A DNA stretch of 64,000 nt from Bdellovibrionales bacterium (lineage in GTDB: Bacteria > Bdellovibrionota > Bdellovibrionia > Bdellovibrionales > JAGQZY01): the NCBI GenBank assembly GCA_031426555.1, contig JANPLN010000064.1, positions 24,931 through 88,930 on the forward strand, in the 5' to 3' direction. The notes under the pieces were generated by a model. That model was not told the origin of the DNA. It worked only from the letters and a program-made list of their open reading frames with translations, and ran no database searches. Position 1 is the stretch's first letter; every line of letters starts with the position of its first letter. The position numbers were made by a program, and so were the translations under genes. Below are positions 39,217 to 44,188 of the stretch, piece by piece.

Positions 39217-41088
39217 TTACCCCGCTGTCTCGATGATCAACAAGATGATTCCGATGATAGAACCGCCGGCAATAATTCCCGCACCAATGGACTCTTGGTT
39301 TTCGGTGACCGCCTGATAAAACGGCGACCGATTTTGCAAAGGTTTTTTGTTCATCACCCAAAAAATAAAGGCGCCCAAAAACATCATAAACACATCGGTA
39401 AACGACAGTACAAATGGCAAACCAAAAGCCACCGGCGAAATAGGGAATTTTCCGTTGGTTTTTTTAATCAGGATTTCCATACCGATGCCCAAAGCCGCAC
39501 CAATGAGCACAGCGTATTGAGACGTGATGTGGAGCGAAGAAATTCCCACAGACAGTACGTCGGCGATGGCTTTCCACACGATGGCACTGGGCATTGGCAG
39601 TCGGTCTGTGCCAAACGCACTGATATCGCCTTTAAAAATCATATAAAACACGGGAATCGAGACGAGACTTCCCGCAAAGATTCCGATGATGTGTCCCACG
39701 GCCTGCTGTCGAGGTTTTGCGCCCAACATATATCCAGGCTTGATATCCATTAACAAATTGCTGGCGTTTAGACACACGCTAGAGGTCACTCCGGCTGAGG
39801 TGAGATTGGTGGCTAAGTTTCCCGGATCTAGAAGACTGTAAACGGCCTGGGTCATTTTTGCGAGGGCACTGCCCGGCGTGGTCCCCGTAAGGCCTGTGGC
39901 TTTGACCGCCATGATGCTAAAGGCAAAGACCAACGGAATCGACACTGCGGTTAGCCAGTAATCCACTCCGAAAAACGCTTTGCCCATGATAACCACGGCG
40001 AGTCCGACAATAGGAACGCCGATCAAGGACACTGAAAGTGGCAGCTCAATATCTTTAAGAATGTCGATCTTTTTATCAATTTTGGTTTTTTTAAAAAATG
40101 ACTTAAACCCTGCAATGGTGGAGTCGGCTGAGAAAAACGAATATAACGACGCACTCGTCATCATGGAAGCTCCACCCCACAGTGCCCAAATGGAAATATT
40201 TCTAAATCCACCGCCGATGATAATTCCTTTTTTAATCATGATCGGTGCTAAAACTGCATAGTTGAACAAACCACCCAGCAACATTGAAGTCGCCGTCTGC
40301 ATGGACATGATCGTGCCAGCCCCCATCATGACGATGGATGTATCAAAGCGAAGAAGAAGATCCTTCATCGGAGTTCCCAAAATTGTTGGCGTGTAGAATT
40401 TGTAAACGAACTCATCCCAGTAGTGAGGAATGGCCAGGAAAGGTACACCGATTTTTGCGAGCACCGTTTCGCTTCGTAAAAATTCAATCAGGGCAGACAC
40501 TCCCGCACCGGCCGCTAAAAATTTGGCTCTCTGCACGCCCACTTTGGCATCCGAAGAATGTAAGCTTTCAAGCACCACACCCGCCGCGTAACCTTCGGGA
40601 AACGGCAACTGCTCGTCGTTGATAAATCGTTTTTTAAGAGGGAAAGCGAACAGAGTCCCCAGCACCCCCAGCGCCACAACCCAAAAGTAAACTTGCCACT
40701 GAGAAGGAATGGTTTGAGTCGCCAACATGTAAGCAGGAATAGCGGCAATCAAGGGAGATGTCGTGTAGCCAGCGCTGGCCGCGATGGACTGCATGGCATT
40801 GTTTTCGAGGATGGTCATGTCGGTGGCGATTTTTGTTTTAGCTAGCAGTCGAAACATTCCATAGGAGGCCACCACCGCCGTGATCCCAACTCCCAACGTC
40901 CACCCTGTTCGGATTCCAATGTACAAGTTGGTTAAACAGAGAAACATTCCGAGCAAGGCACCGGTGAGTGCCGAGCGCAGGGTGAGCTGGGGCATGTCCC
41001 CTTTGTAAACATTCTTCAACCACCACTCGTCTTTTTGCTGAAGTGTCCAGGTTTTAACTTGCTCTTCGTTGAGTTGCTTTAAAGACAT
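39217..41088 (-). CDS. OPT-family oligopeptide transporter
   Basis: 623 aa with ~16 TM helices. N-terminal LTLRSALTGALLGMFLCLTNLYIGIRTGWTLGVGITA is typical of the OPT family. Confidence 0.8.
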   Translation of the reverse strand: MSLKQLNEEQVKTWTLQQKDEWWLKNVYKGDMPQLTLRSALTGALLGMFLCLTNLYIGIRTGWTLGVGITAVVASYGMFRLLAKTKIATDMTILENNAMQSIAASAGYTTSPLIAAIPAYMLATQTIPSQWQVYFWVVALGVLGTLFAFPLKKRFINDEQLPFPEGYAAGVVLESLHSSDAKVGVQRAKFLAAGAGVSALIEFLRSETVLAKIGVPFLAIPHYWDEFVYKFYTPTILGTPMKDLLLRFDTSIVMMGAGTIMSMQTATSMLLGGLFNYAVLAPIMIKKGIIIGGGFRNISIWALWGGASMMTSASLYSFFSADSTIAGFKSFFKKTKIDKKIDILKDIELPLSVSLIGVPIVGLAVVIMGKAFFGVDYWLTAVSIPLVFAFSIMAVKATGLTGTTPGSALAKMTQAVYSLLDPGNLATNLTSAGVTSSVCLNASNLLMDIKPGYMLGAKPRQQAVGHIIGIFAGSLVSIPVFYMIFKGDISAFGTDRLPMPSAIVWKAIADVLSVGISSLHITSQYAVLIGAALGIGMEILIKKTNGKFPISPVAFGLPFVLSFTDVFMMFLGAFIFWVMNKKPLQNRSPFYQAVTENQESIGAGIIAGGSIIGIILLIIETAG

Positions 41089-41119
41089 GGGATCCTTTGG
41101 CTCTGATTATTTTGTGCAA

Positions 41120-41728
41120 TTATTTGCTACAGTTTTCGACGATTTCGGTGGTGAGGCTGAGAGATACGGCCGACCAGGTTTTTGATTTTCCATCGGAACC
41201 TTTGTGAAGGTCATAACAAACTTTGTTAATCGACTCGAGGGGCTTTTTCATTTTAAAGTCCATGATATCGATGTCGGTTTCGGCCACATATTTTGCTCCT
41301 TCGATTTTCATGCGAAAAGGTACAACCTTGCTTATGCCGTTCATATCGATTTTGATTTTACTAATAGCAGGGCTATAGGAAACGATCTGTCCTTTGATTT
41401 TGGTGCCGATCACTTTTTTGAAAAAGAATTTCTTGAGGTTGTCATTGCGACCAGGGTCGCCCGACTCTAAGCCCTGGGGATCGATTTCGATGGACGTTTT
41501 TTCGAAAAGCTCTTGAGCGCTGTTGGCTGTAGGGGGCGCATCCAAGGTGAACACGGGAAAGCTGGCAAGCACGCCCTTCTTTTCGGTGAACTTGTACGCT
41601 GTCCACTCAATTTTGAGAGCGTCTGGCTTATAGGAATAAGTGCATGTGGTGCTGGTTGGCGACTGGGCAGAGATTGTAAGAGAAAAAAACAAAACCGCTG
41701 TGAACACTGAGGACCTCCATTGTAACAA
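41120..41728 (-). CDS. YceI-like periplasmic lipid/polyisoprenoid-binding family protein
   Basis: Signal peptide. IEIDPQGLESGDPGRNDNLKKFFF resembles the YceI S-x-TG-x3-RD-x-HL-x3-FF block. Confidence 0.45.
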   Translation of the reverse strand: MLQWRSSVFTAVLFFSLTISAQSPTSTTCTYSYKPDALKIEWTAYKFTEKKGVLASFPVFTLDAPPTANSAQELFEKTSIEIDPQGLESGDPGRNDNLKKFFFKKVIGTKIKGQIVSYSPAISKIKIDMNGISKVVPFRMKIEGAKYVAETDIDIMDFKMKKPLESINKVCYDLHKGSDGKSKTWSAVSLSLTTEIVENCSK

Positions 41729-41769: not shown

Positions 41770-43671
41770 TTATGAAGATCTGACGAGCTTTTTCGTCCAG
41801 GTTGAGATCGATGAGCACTGAGTTTCAGCGATGTCGCAGAACTGCACCCCGTAGGATTTGCGTTCCTGACTCCACACCACTTTACCAAGCACTTGAACTC
41901 GCTCTTTGCCATCGGGACTCATGATGTTCATTTCAACGATTCCACCCTGCTCAAGCAATGCTTCCGTATCAATCTTCACGCCACCAAGCGAAATGGAACT
42001 GACAGAGCCGACAAGCTCTTTGTCGCCAACGCTGATGCGCACTTCTGATTTGATATTATAACGCTGATACGCTCGGCGATCGTCTTCTTCTTTGCGACGC
42101 ATTTTAAGTACAAATGCCACAGCGAAGGGGCTCAACACGATCAGCATCAATAGTCCGCGACCGGCAATGTCCGCTGATGACTCGCCAGAGATTTGCTTAA
42201 CAAGTCCGCAACCACCGCTGGCACCGCCCTCGGAGGCCACACTGCGGCTGGCAGTATAATCTGGCTGAGAGGTACTGATCGCGTTGTTTTTAGCATAGGT
42301 TACCGCTTTGAAAACATTCACACGGGCGTTTGTTGTGACTTTGCCATTCACATTCCCCACATTCGAATCGTTCTGGGCGTAGAGAATTTGCCCCGCCTGA
42401 TAGCCGTTAATTTCTTGACCCGCTTCGCGCTCCATTAGCGCAATAATTCCAGCCACCAGTGGCGCCGCCATGCTGGTTCCAGAGGCGTATGCATAACTGT
42501 TGTTTGGCAATGTACTTAAAATACCAACCCCGGGGCTGGCGATATCAACTGTCGAGCGTCCGAAGTTTGAAAAGCTCGCCATGGTGTCGCTGTCACTGGT
42601 AGCTGCGATGGATATTAGATTTCCCACGGAATAGTTTGAAGGATAGGTGGGACTGTTATCGTTATTATTACTGGCGTTTCCTGCAGCGGCAACAAAGGTC
42701 AGACCGTTGGCATAAGCCTCAACAATGGCATCTAGCAAAGCGGCACTATAACTACCGCCGCCCCAAGAGGCATTGATCACAGAAGCGCCGTTTTCGATGG
42801 CGTAATAGATAGCTTCGATGGCGTCGGAGGTGGCGCCACTGCCTGTGCTGTCCAAAAACTTCAGCGGCATGATCTTAATTTTAGCCGGCGTAAGTGTCAT
42901 TGCAAAAATATCCTGAGTGACACCAAGGATAATTCCCGACACGTGGGTTCCATGGTCTTCGTCGTCCATGGGATTGTTGTTGTTCGCTACAAAATTCCAA
43001 CCGCGAATGTCGTCGATATATCCATTGTGATCATCGTCAATTCCATTGCTTGCGATCTCATCGGTGTTTCGCCAAACGGCATTGGCATCCACAAAAATTT
43101 CGTGATTATAATCCAAGCCAGTATCGATCACTGCCACCACGGGCACAACGGATGAGGTTGGCGCTAAAATATTCCAAGCCTGTTCCACTTGAATCGCAGC
43201 GTCCGATTGATAATAAGTGGGCACGGTAAATGACGTCACACCCGAAGCGCTAATTGAATTCAAGGCTTCGGATTTTGAAAACTTATTACTCTCCAACCCT
43301 GCGCTTTGTTTCCTAAATATGTAATTTGGCTCCGCGTACTCCACGTTTGGATCGGCACGCAGCTGTTGCAAAAGCTGTTCAACGTTTTGTTGCCCCGCTT
43401 TTGCTTGAAAATGATGGGTATTTAAAAGATTCCAAGATTTTTTAAGATTCACACTCAAGCCTATGGCTTTGCTACTAAAACTCGCACTGCCCGCCTGTTC
43501 TTTTTTAAACTTAACAATCACTTCGCCAGGAACGTATTCTTGAGCCTGTGCCAAGCTTGAAGCCAACAAAAGCGCGCACCAAATCGTTGCAATGTAACTA
43601 CAAAATATAGGCAAAATACACCCCTTGCTGTACTTAGATCCTATCGGTTGAACGAAAAAAAAATAAAGCAA
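41770..43671 (-). CDS. Secreted S8 subtilisin-family protease with a C-terminal TM anchor and cytoplasmic PilZ domain
   Basis: Catalytic motifs VAVIDTGLDYNH, HGTHVSGII, AAAGNAS, GTSMAAPLVAGIIAL. TM LLMLIVLSPFAVAFVL followed by KMRRKEEDD. PilZ motifs RRAYQR (RxxxR) and SISLGG ((D/N/S)xSxxG). No ATG start; TTG candidates at 43671 and 43614 (the latter with AAGGGG upstream). Confidence 0.8.
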   Translation of the reverse strand: MLYFFFVQPIGSKYSKGCILPIFCSYIATIWCALLLASSLAQAQEYVPGEVIVKFKKEQAGSASFSSKAIGLSVNLKKSWNLLNTHHFQAKAGQQNVEQLLQQLRADPNVEYAEPNYIFRKQSAGLESNKFSKSEALNSISASGVTSFTVPTYYQSDAAIQVEQAWNILAPTSSVVPVVAVIDTGLDYNHEIFVDANAVWRNTDEIASNGIDDDHNGYIDDIRGWNFVANNNNPMDDEDHGTHVSGIILGVTQDIFAMTLTPAKIKIMPLKFLDSTGSGATSDAIEAIYYAIENGASVINASWGGGSYSAALLDAIVEAYANGLTFVAAAGNASNNNDNSPTYPSNYSVGNLISIAATSDSDTMASFSNFGRSTVDIASPGVGILSTLPNNSYAYASGTSMAAPLVAGIIALMEREAGQEINGYQAGQILYAQNDSNVGNVNGKVTTNARVNVFKAVTYAKNNAISTSQPDYTASRSVASEGGASGGCGLVKQISGESSADIAGRGLLMLIVLSPFAVAFVLKMRRKEEDDRRAYQRYNIKSEVRISVGDKELVGSVSSISLGGVKIDTEALLEQGGIVEMNIMSPDGKERVQVLGKVVWSQERKSYGVQFCDIAETQCSSISTWTKKLVRSS

Positions 43672-43740
43672 CTAAGGGAATCTTTGCCCCTTTCACGACC
43701 GATTCTCAACTTGAGACAATTGCGGCATCTCATGATGAAA

Positions 43741-43901
43741 CCATTTTTACTTTTTTATATATTTTCCCTTTTTTTAGAATGTTAAAAATAGGACGCGGGC
43801 ATCGTGCCCTCAACCGCACAGTCTTACGCCATCCTGGCGCTGCGGAGGTCCTATTTTCAACATTCTAAAAAATGGAAAAATATATAAAAAAGCAAAAATG
43901 G
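43741..43901 (-). ncRNA. Structured element E1: 54-bp imperfect stem enclosing a 53-nt GC-rich two-hairpin core (unassigned family)
   Basis: Arms 43741-43794 / 43848-43901 are complementary at 50/54 positions. Core 43795-43847. 3 of the 4 stem mismatches are G:U on the minus-strand transcript. Lies 70 nt upstream of the S8-PilZ ORF. Confidence 0.45.
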
Positions 43902-43993
43902 CCCACTTGCACCCGGAATGCTGAAAGTTATCTTGCGTTTACTTTATGATGTTGCAGTTCATGTGCTGGTATCGATTGCGGGATTTGTGAAGA

Positions 43994-44140
43994 TTGATTT
44001 TTACTTTGGGTTCAGTTTCCGAAAACTTACTAAATGGGACCTCTGCAGCGCCAGGATGGCGTACGACTCTGCAGTTGAGGGCACGATGCCCGCGTCCTAT
44101 TTAGTGAGTTTTTGGAAACTGAACCCAAAGTAAAAATTAA
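43994..44140 (+). ncRNA. Structured element E2: 47-bp imperfect stem enclosing the same core in inverted orientation
   Basis: Arms 43994-44040 / 44094-44140 are complementary at 43/47 positions. Core 44041-44093 is the reverse complement of the E1 core (49/53). All 4 stem mismatches are G:U on the plus-strand transcript. Confidence 0.45.
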
Positions 44141-44188
44141 AGTTTATAAATCTCGCGCGGCACACTCTCGTGTGCCTGCTGAGGTTAT

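What the first reader, a model, noticed from the sequence alone, without database searches (positions are those of the whole stretch)
41770..43671. Extracytoplasmic subtilisin fused through a single TM helix to a cytoplasmic PilZ (c-di-GMP receptor) domain
The ORF has a signal-like N-terminus and a complete S8 catalytic set: IDTG, HGTHV, AAGN, GTSMAAP. Next comes one hydrophobic helix (LLMLIVLSPFAVAFVL) followed by a positive stop-transfer (KMRRKEEDD). The last ~100 aa carry the PilZ signature pair RRAYQR (RxxxR) and SISLGG ((D/N/S)xSxxG). That topology puts the protease outside the cytoplasm and a c-di-GMP-binding module inside. It suggests inside-out control of a surface or periplasmic protease by c-di-GMP, an architecture I do not know to have been characterised. 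The gene has no ATG start (TTG candidates at 43671 and 43614) and is preceded by structured element E1.
Basis: partly seen in the sequence, partly recalled or inferred. Interest (0 to 1): 0.6.

Follow-up and report, generated by a model that had tools for sequence, protein, structure and literature searches.

The report
Membrane-tethered periplasmic subtilisin with PilZ tail
This gene from a Bdellovibrio-like predatory bacterium encodes a protein-cutting enzyme exported out of the cytoplasm but held to the membrane by one helix, ending inside the cell in a sensor domain for the signalling molecule c-di-GMP; the design is real and conserved but already catalogued (Bd2545 in B. bacteriovorus), and nobody has tested how it works.

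Summary
ORF 41770-43671(-) hits Pfam Fervidolysin_NPro-like (2.6e-12), Peptidase_S8 (4.7e-47) and PilZ (3.7e-17). Between the last two lie a disordered linker and a single TM helix. A conserved signal peptide and a positive-inside charge bias (5.4 vs 1.1 K+R) put the protease in the periplasm and PilZ in the cytoplasm.

Across 116 homologues (47-96% identity), all with the same architecture, the catalytic residues and PilZ R533xxxR537, S561 and G563-G564 are invariant. The first position of the second PilZ motif is always S/T, never the canonical D/N. A Ser precedent, PA2989, binds c-di-GMP.

Corrections:
- The true start is probably TTG 43614.
- The upstream structured element is a lineage-specific insertion, probably not part of the transcript.
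- The architecture is not new. It was listed in 2008 for B. bacteriovorus Bd2545 (41% identical), an attack-phase, FliA-promoter gene. The window has the same CCGATA -10 box at the same offset.

I found no biochemical or targeted functional study. Most likely this is a c-di-GMP-responsive, membrane-tethered periplasmic protease of the attack phase. Ligand binding and inside-out control remain untested.

The parts
41770..43614 (-). Revised CDS (614 aa plus stop) of the pro-subtilisin-TM-PilZ protein, TTG start. Residue numbers in this report count from the longer ORF start at 43671.
   Evidence: ORF. Start supported by homologue N-termini, conserved SD plus TTG in L084-L086, and the promoter position.
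43642..43647 (-). CCGATA, a sigma28/FliA-type -10 box 33 nt before the TTG start. The -35 is weak in this window. The predicted transcription start is near 43632.
   Evidence: The attack-phase consensus TTAAG-N16-CCGATA is given in PMC3627812. The Bd2545 promoter with its mapped TSS has the box at the same -33 offset. The box is present in 8 of 11 orthologue loci.
43621..43626 (-). Shine-Dalgarno AAGGGG, 6 nt before TTG 43614
   Evidence: Sequence. Conserved as CAAGGGG in L001, L084, L085 and L086.
43543..43614 (-). Sec signal peptide (residues 20-43), with cleavage after SLAQA before QEYVPGE
   Evidence: Hydropathy peak. Signal peptides ending AxA directly before the conserved QEYVPGE occur across homologues.
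43324..43551 (-). Fervidolysin_NPro-like prodomain (residues 41-116), the intramolecular chaperone/inhibitor type of subtilases
   Evidence: Pfam PF22148, E 2.6e-12. Precomputed for most homologues.
42424..43143 (-). Peptidase_S8 catalytic domain (residues 177-416). Catalytic residues: D183 (43123-43125), H240 (42952-42954), oxyanion N332 (42676-42678), S400 (42472-42474).
   Evidence: Pfam E 4.7e-47. All four residues are invariant in 116 sequences. pLDDT is 95-98. The closest solved relative is deseasin MCP-01, 3vv3, E 3.6e-65.
42157..42291 (-). Flexible periplasmic tether (residues 461-505) carrying the invariant C488-G489 (GGCGLV; Cys codon at 42208-42210)
   Evidence: pLDDT is below 50 for residues 477-498. 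C488 and G489 are invariant. It is the only periplasmic Cys in 111 of 116 sequences. The Cys-to-TM-Pro spacing varies from 27 to 39 residues.
42100..42156 (-). Single transmembrane helix (residues 506-524) with invariant P515, followed by the basic stop-transfer KMRRK
   Evidence: Kyte-Doolittle 2.23. AlphaFold helix 501-531. P515 is invariant. K+R counts are 5.4 after versus 1.1 before the helix.
41797..42081 (-). Cytoplasmic PilZ domain (residues 531-625). R532-R533xxxR537 lies at 42061-42078. S559-I-S561-L-G563-G564 lies at 41980-41997.
   Evidence: Pfam E 3.7e-17. R533, R537, S561, G563 and G564 are invariant. Position 559 is S or T in 113 of 116, C in 3, and never D/N. The tail model has pLDDT 83 with six strands plus a helix. 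The top 22 Foldseek hits are all PilZ-domain structures, most c-di-GMP-bound, with Alg44 4rt0 first at TM 0.75.

Best explanation
The gene encodes a Sec-exported pro-subtilisin. After signal-peptide and propeptide removal, it stays tethered to the inner membrane of a Bdellovibrio-like predator by one C-proximal TM helix. The active S8 domain hangs in the periplasm on a roughly 45-residue flexible linker. A canonical PilZ domain sits in the cytoplasm, directly abutting the helix. It belongs to the family of B. bacteriovorus Bd2545, an attack-phase gene driven by a FliA (sigma28) promoter. The most likely mechanism is as follows. Cytoplasmic c-di-GMP, probably as an intercalated dimer given the RRxxxR form, binds the RRxxxR loop that begins about 9 residues after the membrane boundary, together with the [S/T]-I-S-x-G-G turn. 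This clamps the loop onto the barrel and promotes tail-tail or tail-partner association. That in turn changes the tilt, oligomeric state or location of the Pro-kinked TM helix. In this way the second-messenger level is coupled to where and when the periplasmic protease acts. Shown here: domains, fold, topology signals, motif conservation, family membership and the promoter element. Inferred: ligand binding, transmembrane coupling and the substrate.
For: Domain calls are well above the curated cutoffs. All full-length homologues among the 120 best and the 120 best carry S8 plus PilZ; the few without PilZ are fragments on short contigs. The tail-only search of 1.84 billion representatives finds this linker-TM-PilZ tail at E<=1e-10 almost only at the C-terminus of 596-680 aa proteins. 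The catalytic residues are invariant, so the enzyme is probably active. R533, R537, S561, G563 and G564 are invariant, and R532 is Arg in 93 of 116. PilZ is as conserved as the catalytic domain: 63% vs 65% mean identity, against 35-37% for the linker and TM. The TM-Pro to R533 spacing is tight, 16-20 residues in 114 of 116, whereas the periplasmic tether is variable. The tail fold matches PilZ-domain structures, most solved with c-di-GMP bound, led by Alg44, which is itself a single-pass protein with a cytoplasmic PilZ. Ser in the D/N position is compatible with binding in PA2989. Bd2545 (P0400 = CAE80343.1) aligns over its full length at 41% identity, including GGCGLV, the TM Pro, RRxxxR and TISxGG. 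Bd2545 is called a pilZ gene that is down-regulated on leaving attack phase. It has a mapped attack-phase TSS with a FliA motif. The window has CCGATA at the same -33 offset.
Against: No binding or activity data exist for any family member that I could find. The canonical D/N of the second motif is absent in every member. A single TM helix on a disordered periplasmic linker is a poor conduit for allosteric control of a catalytic site, so regulation may concern localisation or partners rather than activity. There is no conserved neighbouring partner gene. The apparent 109J orthologue tolerates transposon insertions, with fitness values of 0.96-1.46, so the protein is not essential for predation under those conditions. 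The -35 element of the window promoter is weak.
Confidence: 0.5

Rival explanations
1. The PilZ tail is a c-di-GMP-independent adaptor. It would dock or anchor the protease to a cytoplasmic partner, as Xanthomonas PilZ binds FimX and PilB without binding c-di-GMP. The TM plus tail would then serve only as an anchor and address label.
For: By sequence alone, the best PDB matches of the tail are the non-binding Xanthomonas PilZ proteins 3dsg, 4f48 and 3cnr, at a weak E of about 0.01. [quoted passage not shown]
Against: Non-binding PilZ proteins lack the N-terminal RxxxR loop. Here R533 and R537 are invariant in an otherwise unstructured segment, and S561/G563/G564 are also invariant. By structure, the canonical PilZ structures rank first and the Xanthomonas proteins rank 44-46. 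Ser at this position binds ligand in PA2989.
Confidence: 0.15
2. Regulated shedding or sorting. The segment 'GCG motif - spacer - TM helix with Pro - Arg/Lys cluster' would act like a Cys-containing tripartite sorting signal (MYXO-CTERM, JDVT-CTERM or Synerg-CTERM type). An intramembrane or juxtamembrane cleavage, possibly with modification of C488, would release or re-anchor the protease. PilZ would gate this step according to c-di-GMP.
For: C488-G489 are invariant, and this is the sole periplasmic Cys in 111 of 116 sequences. There is an invariant Pro in the TM and a basic cluster after it. The published description of Cys-containing tripartite signals includes one with an invariant Pro in the TM.
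Against: Those signals sit at the extreme C-terminus, with the Cys next to the helix. Here about 110 residues follow the TM, and the Cys lies about 17 residues before it, with variable spacing. No NCBIfam sorting-signal model hit at E<=1. No CPBP or rhombosortase-like gene was seen in the neighbourhoods.
Confidence: 0.1
3. Outside-in signalling. The periplasmic state of the protease (propeptide release, substrate engagement or self-cleavage) would change what the cytoplasmic PilZ tail does, for example sequestering c-di-GMP or a partner. The protease would be the sensor rather than the output.
For: The two domains are equally conserved. The gene is stand-alone with no dedicated partner. B. bacteriovorus is reported to have many PilZ proteins (15-18) of unknown role.
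Against: There is no precedent for PilZ as an output of a periplasmic sensor. The catalytic domain most resembles broad-specificity degradative subtilases such as deseasin MCP-01, thermitase and subtilisin.
Confidence: 0.1

Closest known systems
Bd2545 of Bdellovibrio bacteriovorus HD100 (CAE80343.1; listed as the Subt-PilZ architecture under NP_969350.1)
   Same: It shares the prodomain-S8-linker(GGCGLV)-TM(Pro)-RRxxxR-[S/T]ISxGG PilZ architecture. It is 628 aa and aligns end to end at 41% identity. It has a FliA-type -10 box 33 nt before the start codon.
   Different: The genomic context differs: DUF502 | gene | MgtE in B. bacteriovorus, versus ppiD | gene | yceI-OPT here. Bd2545 has a good -35 (CTAAA), while the window's is weak. 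Bd2545 itself has only expression, promoter and apparently Tn-seq data, and no biochemistry. The equation NP_969350.1 = Bd2545 is inferred: it is the only Subt-PilZ protein in that genome survey.
Alg44 (Pseudomonas aeruginosa alginate co-polymerase)
   Same: It is a single-pass inner-membrane protein with a cytoplasmic c-di-GMP-binding PilZ domain and a periplasmic domain. Its PilZ domain is the best structural match to this tail (4rt0, TM 0.75).
   Different: The order is reversed (PilZ is N-terminal in Alg44). Its periplasmic part is a membrane-fusion-like domain, not an enzyme. Sequence identity is only about 12%. The statements about Alg44 topology rest on established knowledge, not on a test here.
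LapD-LapG inside-out c-di-GMP signalling (Pseudomonas fluorescens)
   Same: The logic is the same: cytoplasmic c-di-GMP level controls what a periplasmic protease can do.
   Different: This is analogy only. LapD senses through a degenerate EAL domain and acts in trans by sequestering the cysteine protease LapG. No LapD or LapG family hit occurs here. In this protein, sensor and protease are one polypeptide.
Mycosins (MycP, type VII secretion S8 proteases)
   Same: They are S8 proteases with an N-terminal signal sequence and a C-terminal single TM anchor. Mycosin is the best NCBIfam hit (TIGR03921, 90.8 bits).
   Different: The score is far below the 278.75-bit cutoff. Mycosins have no PilZ tail and belong to Actinobacteria and Firmicutes ESX systems.
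Deseasin MCP-01 (3vv3) and thermitase-type secreted subtilases
   Same: They are the closest solved catalytic domains (E 3.6e-65 and about 1e-36 to 1e-39).
   Different: They are freely secreted enzymes, with other C-terminal domains or none, and have no TM or PilZ.
[quoted passage not shown]
   Same: The order of elements matches: an invariant-Cys motif, a hydrophobic helix (with Pro in Synerg-CTERM), and a basic cluster.
   Different: The segment here is not C-terminal, the Cys is not adjacent to the helix, and there is no HMM hit.

Membership tests
Peptidase S8 (subtilase), Pfam PF00082 | HMM score above the gathering cutoff | tested here: met
   161.1 bits against a 21.8 cutoff, E 4.7e-47
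Peptidase S8 (subtilase), Pfam PF00082 | Catalytic triad in the order Asp-His-Ser, plus the oxyanion Asn | tested here: met
   D183 (IDTG), H240 (HGTH), N332 (AAGN) and S400 (GTSM) are each invariant in 116 of 116 homologues
PilZ domain, Pfam PF07238 | HMM score above the gathering cutoff over nearly the whole profile | tested here: met
   63 bits against a 22.5 cutoff, E 3.7e-17, profile positions 1-99 of 102
PilZ domain, Pfam PF07238 | [quoted passage not shown] | tested here: met
   The tail model has pLDDT 83, with six strands and helix 92-108. The top 22 Foldseek PDB hits are all PilZ-domain structures, most solved with c-di-GMP.
PilZ domain, c-di-GMP-binding subset | RxxxR motif in the N-terminal loop | tested here: met
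   R533 and R537 are invariant. R532 is Arg in 93 of 116, giving the RRxxxR form.
PilZ domain, c-di-GMP-binding subset | [D/N]hSxxG motif | tested here: inconclusive
   h (I560), S561 and G564 are conserved, but position 1 is S/T (113) or C (3) and never D/N. The register is confirmed by alignment to NISAGG of MotI, 5vx6. A Ser variant (PA2989) is reported to bind.
PilZ domain, c-di-GMP-binding subset | Measured c-di-GMP binding | not testable with these tools
   This needs DRaCALA, ITC or MST on the purified tail. The capture-compound study of B. bacteriovorus (Rotem 2016) was not held in the library.
Bd2545-type S8-TM-PilZ proteins of Bdellovibrionota | Full-length collinear homology with the same domain order, linker Cys, TM Pro and PilZ motifs | tested here: met
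   41% identity over 614 aa to CAE80343.1. 47-96% identity to 115 other members.
Bd2545-type S8-TM-PilZ proteins of Bdellovibrionota | FliA/sigma28 attack-phase promoter (TTAAG-N16-CCGATA) | tested here: inconclusive
   A perfect -10 CCGATA lies at the same offset as in Bd2545, but the -35 matches only 1-3 of 5 positions. There are no expression data for this organism.
Mycosin (TIGR03921) | HMM score above the equivalog cutoff | tested here: not met
   90.8 bits against a 278.75 cutoff
Tripartite C-terminal sorting signals with invariant Cys (MYXO-CTERM and relatives) | Location at the extreme C-terminus with the Cys motif directly before the TM helix; HMM hit | tested here: not met
   About 110 residues follow the TM. 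The Cys lies about 17 residues before it, with variable spacing. No NCBIfam sorting-domain hit at E<=1.
LapD/LapG system | LapD-type periplasmic domain with HAMP-GGDEF-EAL, and a LapG cysteine protease | tested here: not met
   None of these families appear in the Pfam or NCBIfam scans of the protein or among the neighbours.

The most novel reading that the evidence does not exclude
The invariant GCG motif, the Pro-containing TM helix and the basic cluster would form an internal, c-di-GMP-gated sorting or shedding signal. When c-di-GMP changes at prey contact, the PilZ tail would expose or hide the juxtamembrane segment. The attack-phase protease would then be cut loose, or lipid- or disulfide-re-anchored through C488, and delivered to the predator surface or into the prey. 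This would be the first second-messenger-controlled protein-sorting tag.
Probability: 0.1. Interest if true: 0.8.

Novelty: new member of a known kind. Interest (0 to 1): 0.45.

Why it matters
Which effectors translate c-di-GMP signals into the steps of prey attack in Bdellovibrio-like predators is largely unknown. B. bacteriovorus is reported to have 15-18 PilZ proteins, and the literature describes nearly all of its c-di-GMP effectors as being of unknown function. This family is a compact, one-polypeptide candidate for coupling the cytoplasmic messenger to periplasmic proteolysis. It is conserved across the lineage and expressed in attack phase in the model species. It is also experimentally tractable: a soluble roughly 110-aa tail for binding assays, clear point mutants, and a non-essential gene. 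If the coupling is real, it would be a cis-acting counterpart of LapD-LapG. It would also test how a single TM helix can carry a second-messenger signal outward.

Tried and rejected
- **Genome-collection scan.** It returned mostly unrelated subtilases and only three full-length family members (L004-L006). It gave no usable taxonomic survey and missed B. bacteriovorus; L037 there is a PilZ-less paralogue.
- **Word-index search with the tail alone.** This found only 16 fragments. The exhaustive representative search replaced it.
- **c-di-GMP riboswitch or other known RNA upstream.** Rfam at E<=1 gave only sub-threshold long-hairpin (miRNA-precursor) hits between 43400 and 44400. Rejected.
- **Conserved operon partner.** The ppiD-gene-yceI(-OPT) order holds in one subgroup (L001, L002, L085, L086; L084 and L089 only in part) but not in L003, L087 or L088. 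It is therefore not a defining partner.
- **Mycosin membership.** Rejected on score.
- **Rotem et al. 2016 capture-compound list.** This would say whether Bd2545 was pulled down by c-di-GMP, but the paper is not held. The Lambert 2010 supplement has no Bd2545 entry.
- **Literature searches for a functional study.** Searches combining PilZ with subtilisin or Peptidase_S8, and for Bd2545, found only catalogue mentions and expression data.
- **The permissive pattern CCGATA-N20-45-TTG over all loci.** Uninformative. Replaced by direct inspection of orthologue upstream regions.
Full report
**What is there.** Pfam gives three hits above the curated cutoffs:
- Fervidolysin_NPro-like prodomain, residues 41-116, E 2.6e-12.
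- Peptidase_S8, residues 177-416, E 4.7e-47.
- PilZ, residues 531-625, E 3.7e-17, covering profile positions 1-99 of 102.

NCBIfam adds nothing above cutoff. The best hit is mycosin, at 90.8 bits against a 278.75 cutoff. Residue numbers here count from 43671.

**Start codon and promoter.** No in-frame ATG or GTG precedes the mature sequence. The 96%-identical homologue P0001 begins MPIFCSY, which corresponds to TTG 43614. Family members generally have a 20-28 residue signal peptide ending AxA immediately before a conserved QEYVPGE. AAGGGG lies 6 nt upstream of TTG 43614. This SD plus TTG is conserved in the more distant locus L086, where the gene caller chose a truncated start.

CCGATA sits 33 nt upstream of the TTG, at 43647-43642. 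Karunker et al. report TTAAG-N16-CCGATA as the FliA-type consensus of B. bacteriovorus attack-phase promoters (PMC3627812). Their Table S2 lists Bd2545, 'subtilisin like serine protease', as a monocistronic attack-phase unit. It has a mapped TSS 19 nt before the start codon and a FliA motif. In my alignment of upstream regions, the -10 box of Bd2545 (L087) is at the same -33 offset as in the window. A CCGA[TA][ATG] box occurs in 8 of 11 orthologue loci, and four of these also have a good CTAAA/CTAAG -35 at N16-17. The window's -35 is weak.

By analogy the transcription start is near 43632. TTG 43671 would then be upstream of the transcript, and the CDS is 41770-43614 (614 aa). This step is inferred.

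**Topology.** Outside the catalytic core there are two hydrophobic peaks: the signal peptide, and residues 506-524 with a Kyte-Doolittle mean of 2.23.
- Across 116 homologues, the 12 residues after the helix carry 5.4 K+R on average, against 1.1 before it. By the positive-inside rule the tail is cytoplasmic.
- AlphaFold2 with the family alignment (mean pLDDT 86.9) gives a confident protease (pLDDT 95-98), a disordered segment at 477-498, one long helix at 501-531, then a beta-barrel at 538-612 and a helix at 616-627.
- DeepTMHMM was not available, so the topology rests on these concordant indicators.

**Conservation.** All full-length homologues among the 120 best (47-96% identity) carry both PF00082 and PF07238. 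The only exceptions are fragments on 1.6-2.2 kb contigs. A second search seeded from a divergent member gives the same picture.
- In the 116-sequence alignment, D183, H240, N332 and S400 are invariant, so this is an active enzyme rather than a pseudoprotease.
- In PilZ, R533, R537, S561, G563 and G564 are invariant, and R532 is Arg in 93 of 116.
- The first position of the second motif is S (82), T (31) or C (3), and never D or N. The register is confirmed by the profile alignment to NISAGG of B. subtilis MotI, 5vx6.
- Galperin and Chou define the motif as [D/N]hSxxG. They also note that PA2989, with Ser at this position, binds c-di-GMP. The substitution therefore weakens the binding prediction but does not exclude it.
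- PilZ is as conserved as the catalytic domain: 63% vs 65% mean identity to the window protein, against 35-37% for the linker and TM.
- The distance from the invariant TM proline to R533 is 16-20 residues in 114 of 116 sequences. The periplasmic Cys-to-Pro distance ranges from 27 to 39.

**Fold of the tail.** A separate model of residues 525-633 (pLDDT 83) has six strands and a C-terminal helix. Against the PDB, the 22 hits with E<=0.001 are all PilZ domains, most solved with c-di-GMP: Alg44 first (4rt0, TM 0.75-0.79), then MotI, MapZ, BcsA, YcgR, PA0012 and PP4397. The non-binding Xanthomonas PilZ proteins, which are the best hits by sequence alone (E about 0.01), rank only 44-46 by structure.

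**Distribution.** An exhaustive phmmer of the linker-TM-PilZ segment against 1.84 billion cluster representatives gives 80 hits at E<=1e-10. The full-length ones are all 596-680 aa, with the match at the C-terminus. The rest look like gene fragments. Source names are Bdellovibrio, Bdellovibrionaceae, Pseudobdellovibrionaceae, Bdellovibrionales and Bdellovibrionota, plus a few generic MAG labels. Below that threshold, the nearest PilZ relatives belong to proteins with two or three N-terminal PilZ domains and a C-terminal TonB_C.

**Link to the literature.**
- P0400 is CAE80343.1, 'Subtilisin like serine protease' of B. bacteriovorus HD100, 628 aa. Length and annotation match Bd2545 in Karunker's table.
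- It aligns with the window protein end to end at 41% identity, including GGCGLV, the TM Pro, RRKHDR and NTISQGG, and has the same three Pfam domains.
- The Subt-PilZ architecture was listed for B. bacteriovorus (NP_969350.1, the single such protein) in a 2008 survey. Peptidase_S8 is named among PilZ partners in a 2020 review.
- Lambert et al. call Bd2545 a pilZ gene that is down-regulated on leaving attack phase.
- In the 109J Tn-seq data set, a 'subtilisin-like serine protease' (EP01_RS08730) sits next to the magnesium transporter and ABC transporters, exactly as in L087. It has fitness values of 0.96, 1.46, 1.06 and 1.25 on four prey conditions, so insertions are tolerated. The identification of this locus as the orthologue rests on synteny.
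- I found no biochemical or targeted genetic study. The capture-compound paper that might list it is not held.

**Context.** In the window the gene lies between a PpiD/SurA-like chaperone gene (upstream, same strand) and a YceI-like gene followed by an OPT oligopeptide transporter gene (downstream, same strand). mreCD-pbp2-rodA runs divergently beyond ppiD. This order recurs in L001, L002, L085 and L086, and in part in L084 and L089. It is absent in L003 and in the cultured Bdellovibrio genomes L087 and L088. There is therefore no obligatory neighbour.

**Mechanism.** I commit to a c-di-GMP-responsive, membrane-tethered periplasmic protease of the attack phase. The RRxxxR loop begins about 9 residues after the membrane boundary. 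In other PilZ proteins this loop is the part that closes over the ligand, so ligand binding would act directly on the base of the TM helix. With RRxxxR, an intercalated c-di-GMP dimer is expected; this rests on my own knowledge of the PP4397/VCA0042 work, whose structures 3kyf and 3kyg appear.

The catalytic domain hangs on a disordered tether, so direct allostery onto the active site is unlikely. Change of oligomeric state, location, partner binding or release is more plausible. Rivals are a ligand-independent adaptor tail (0.15), regulated shedding or sorting through the conserved Cys segment (0.1) and outside-in signalling (0.1).

**Verdict.** The regulatory claim is plausible but untested. 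The architecture is catalogued, with an expression-characterised orthologue, so this is a new member of a known but functionally unexplored family.

Noticed in passing
It consists of two long hairpins built from interlocked inverted repeats: 43741-43794 with 43848-43901, 43978-44040 with 44094-44156, and their apical parts 43786-43856 with 44032-44102, which are reverse complements of each other. As single-stranded DNA the fold energy is -115 kcal/mol, z = -15.9. The element is present in the 96%-identical loci L084 and L085 but absent from L086 (85% protein identity), so it is an insertion. No Rfam family reaches its cutoff, and there are no further copies in the window. It lies upstream of the predicted promoter.
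   Followed up: partly
window 43704-43716 (-): A perfect palindrome, TCTCAAGTTGAGA, lies about 60 nt upstream of the -10 box. It is conserved in L084, L085 and L086 although the surrounding sequence diverges. It may be an operator site.
   Followed up: no
window 42208-42213 (-), residues C488-G489: An invariant Cys-Gly (consensus A/G-G-C-G-L/M-V) sits in the otherwise variable, disordered periplasmic linker. It is the only periplasmic cysteine in 111 of 116 family members. It could form an intermolecular disulfide, or be a modification or cleavage site. Its role is unexplained.
   Followed up: partly
proteins P0211, P0214, P0215, P0219: The nearest non-protease relatives of this PilZ domain are 660-1060 aa proteins with two or three N-terminal PilZ domains and a C-terminal TonB_C domain. 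This is another design that links a cytoplasmic c-di-GMP receptor to a periplasmic module.
   Followed up: partly
window 39217-41728 (-): A YceI-like gene (41120-41728) and an OPT oligopeptide transporter gene (39217-41088) follow the protease gene on the same strand, with gaps of 41 and 31 nt and no predicted terminator. This invites a 'protease feeds peptide importer' reading, but the linkage holds only in one subgroup of the family.
   Followed up: partly
L086 4932-5001; also P0007, P0020, P0028, P0030-P0034: Gene callers often truncate the signal peptide of family members, probably because the real start is a TTG. P0002 is called from an internal ATG although the conserved SD plus TTG lies 69 nt upstream.
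   Followed up: partly
window 43918-44133 (+): A 71-aa ATG ORF lies entirely inside the inverted-repeat element. It is probably a by-product of the repeat rather than a gene.
   Followed up: no
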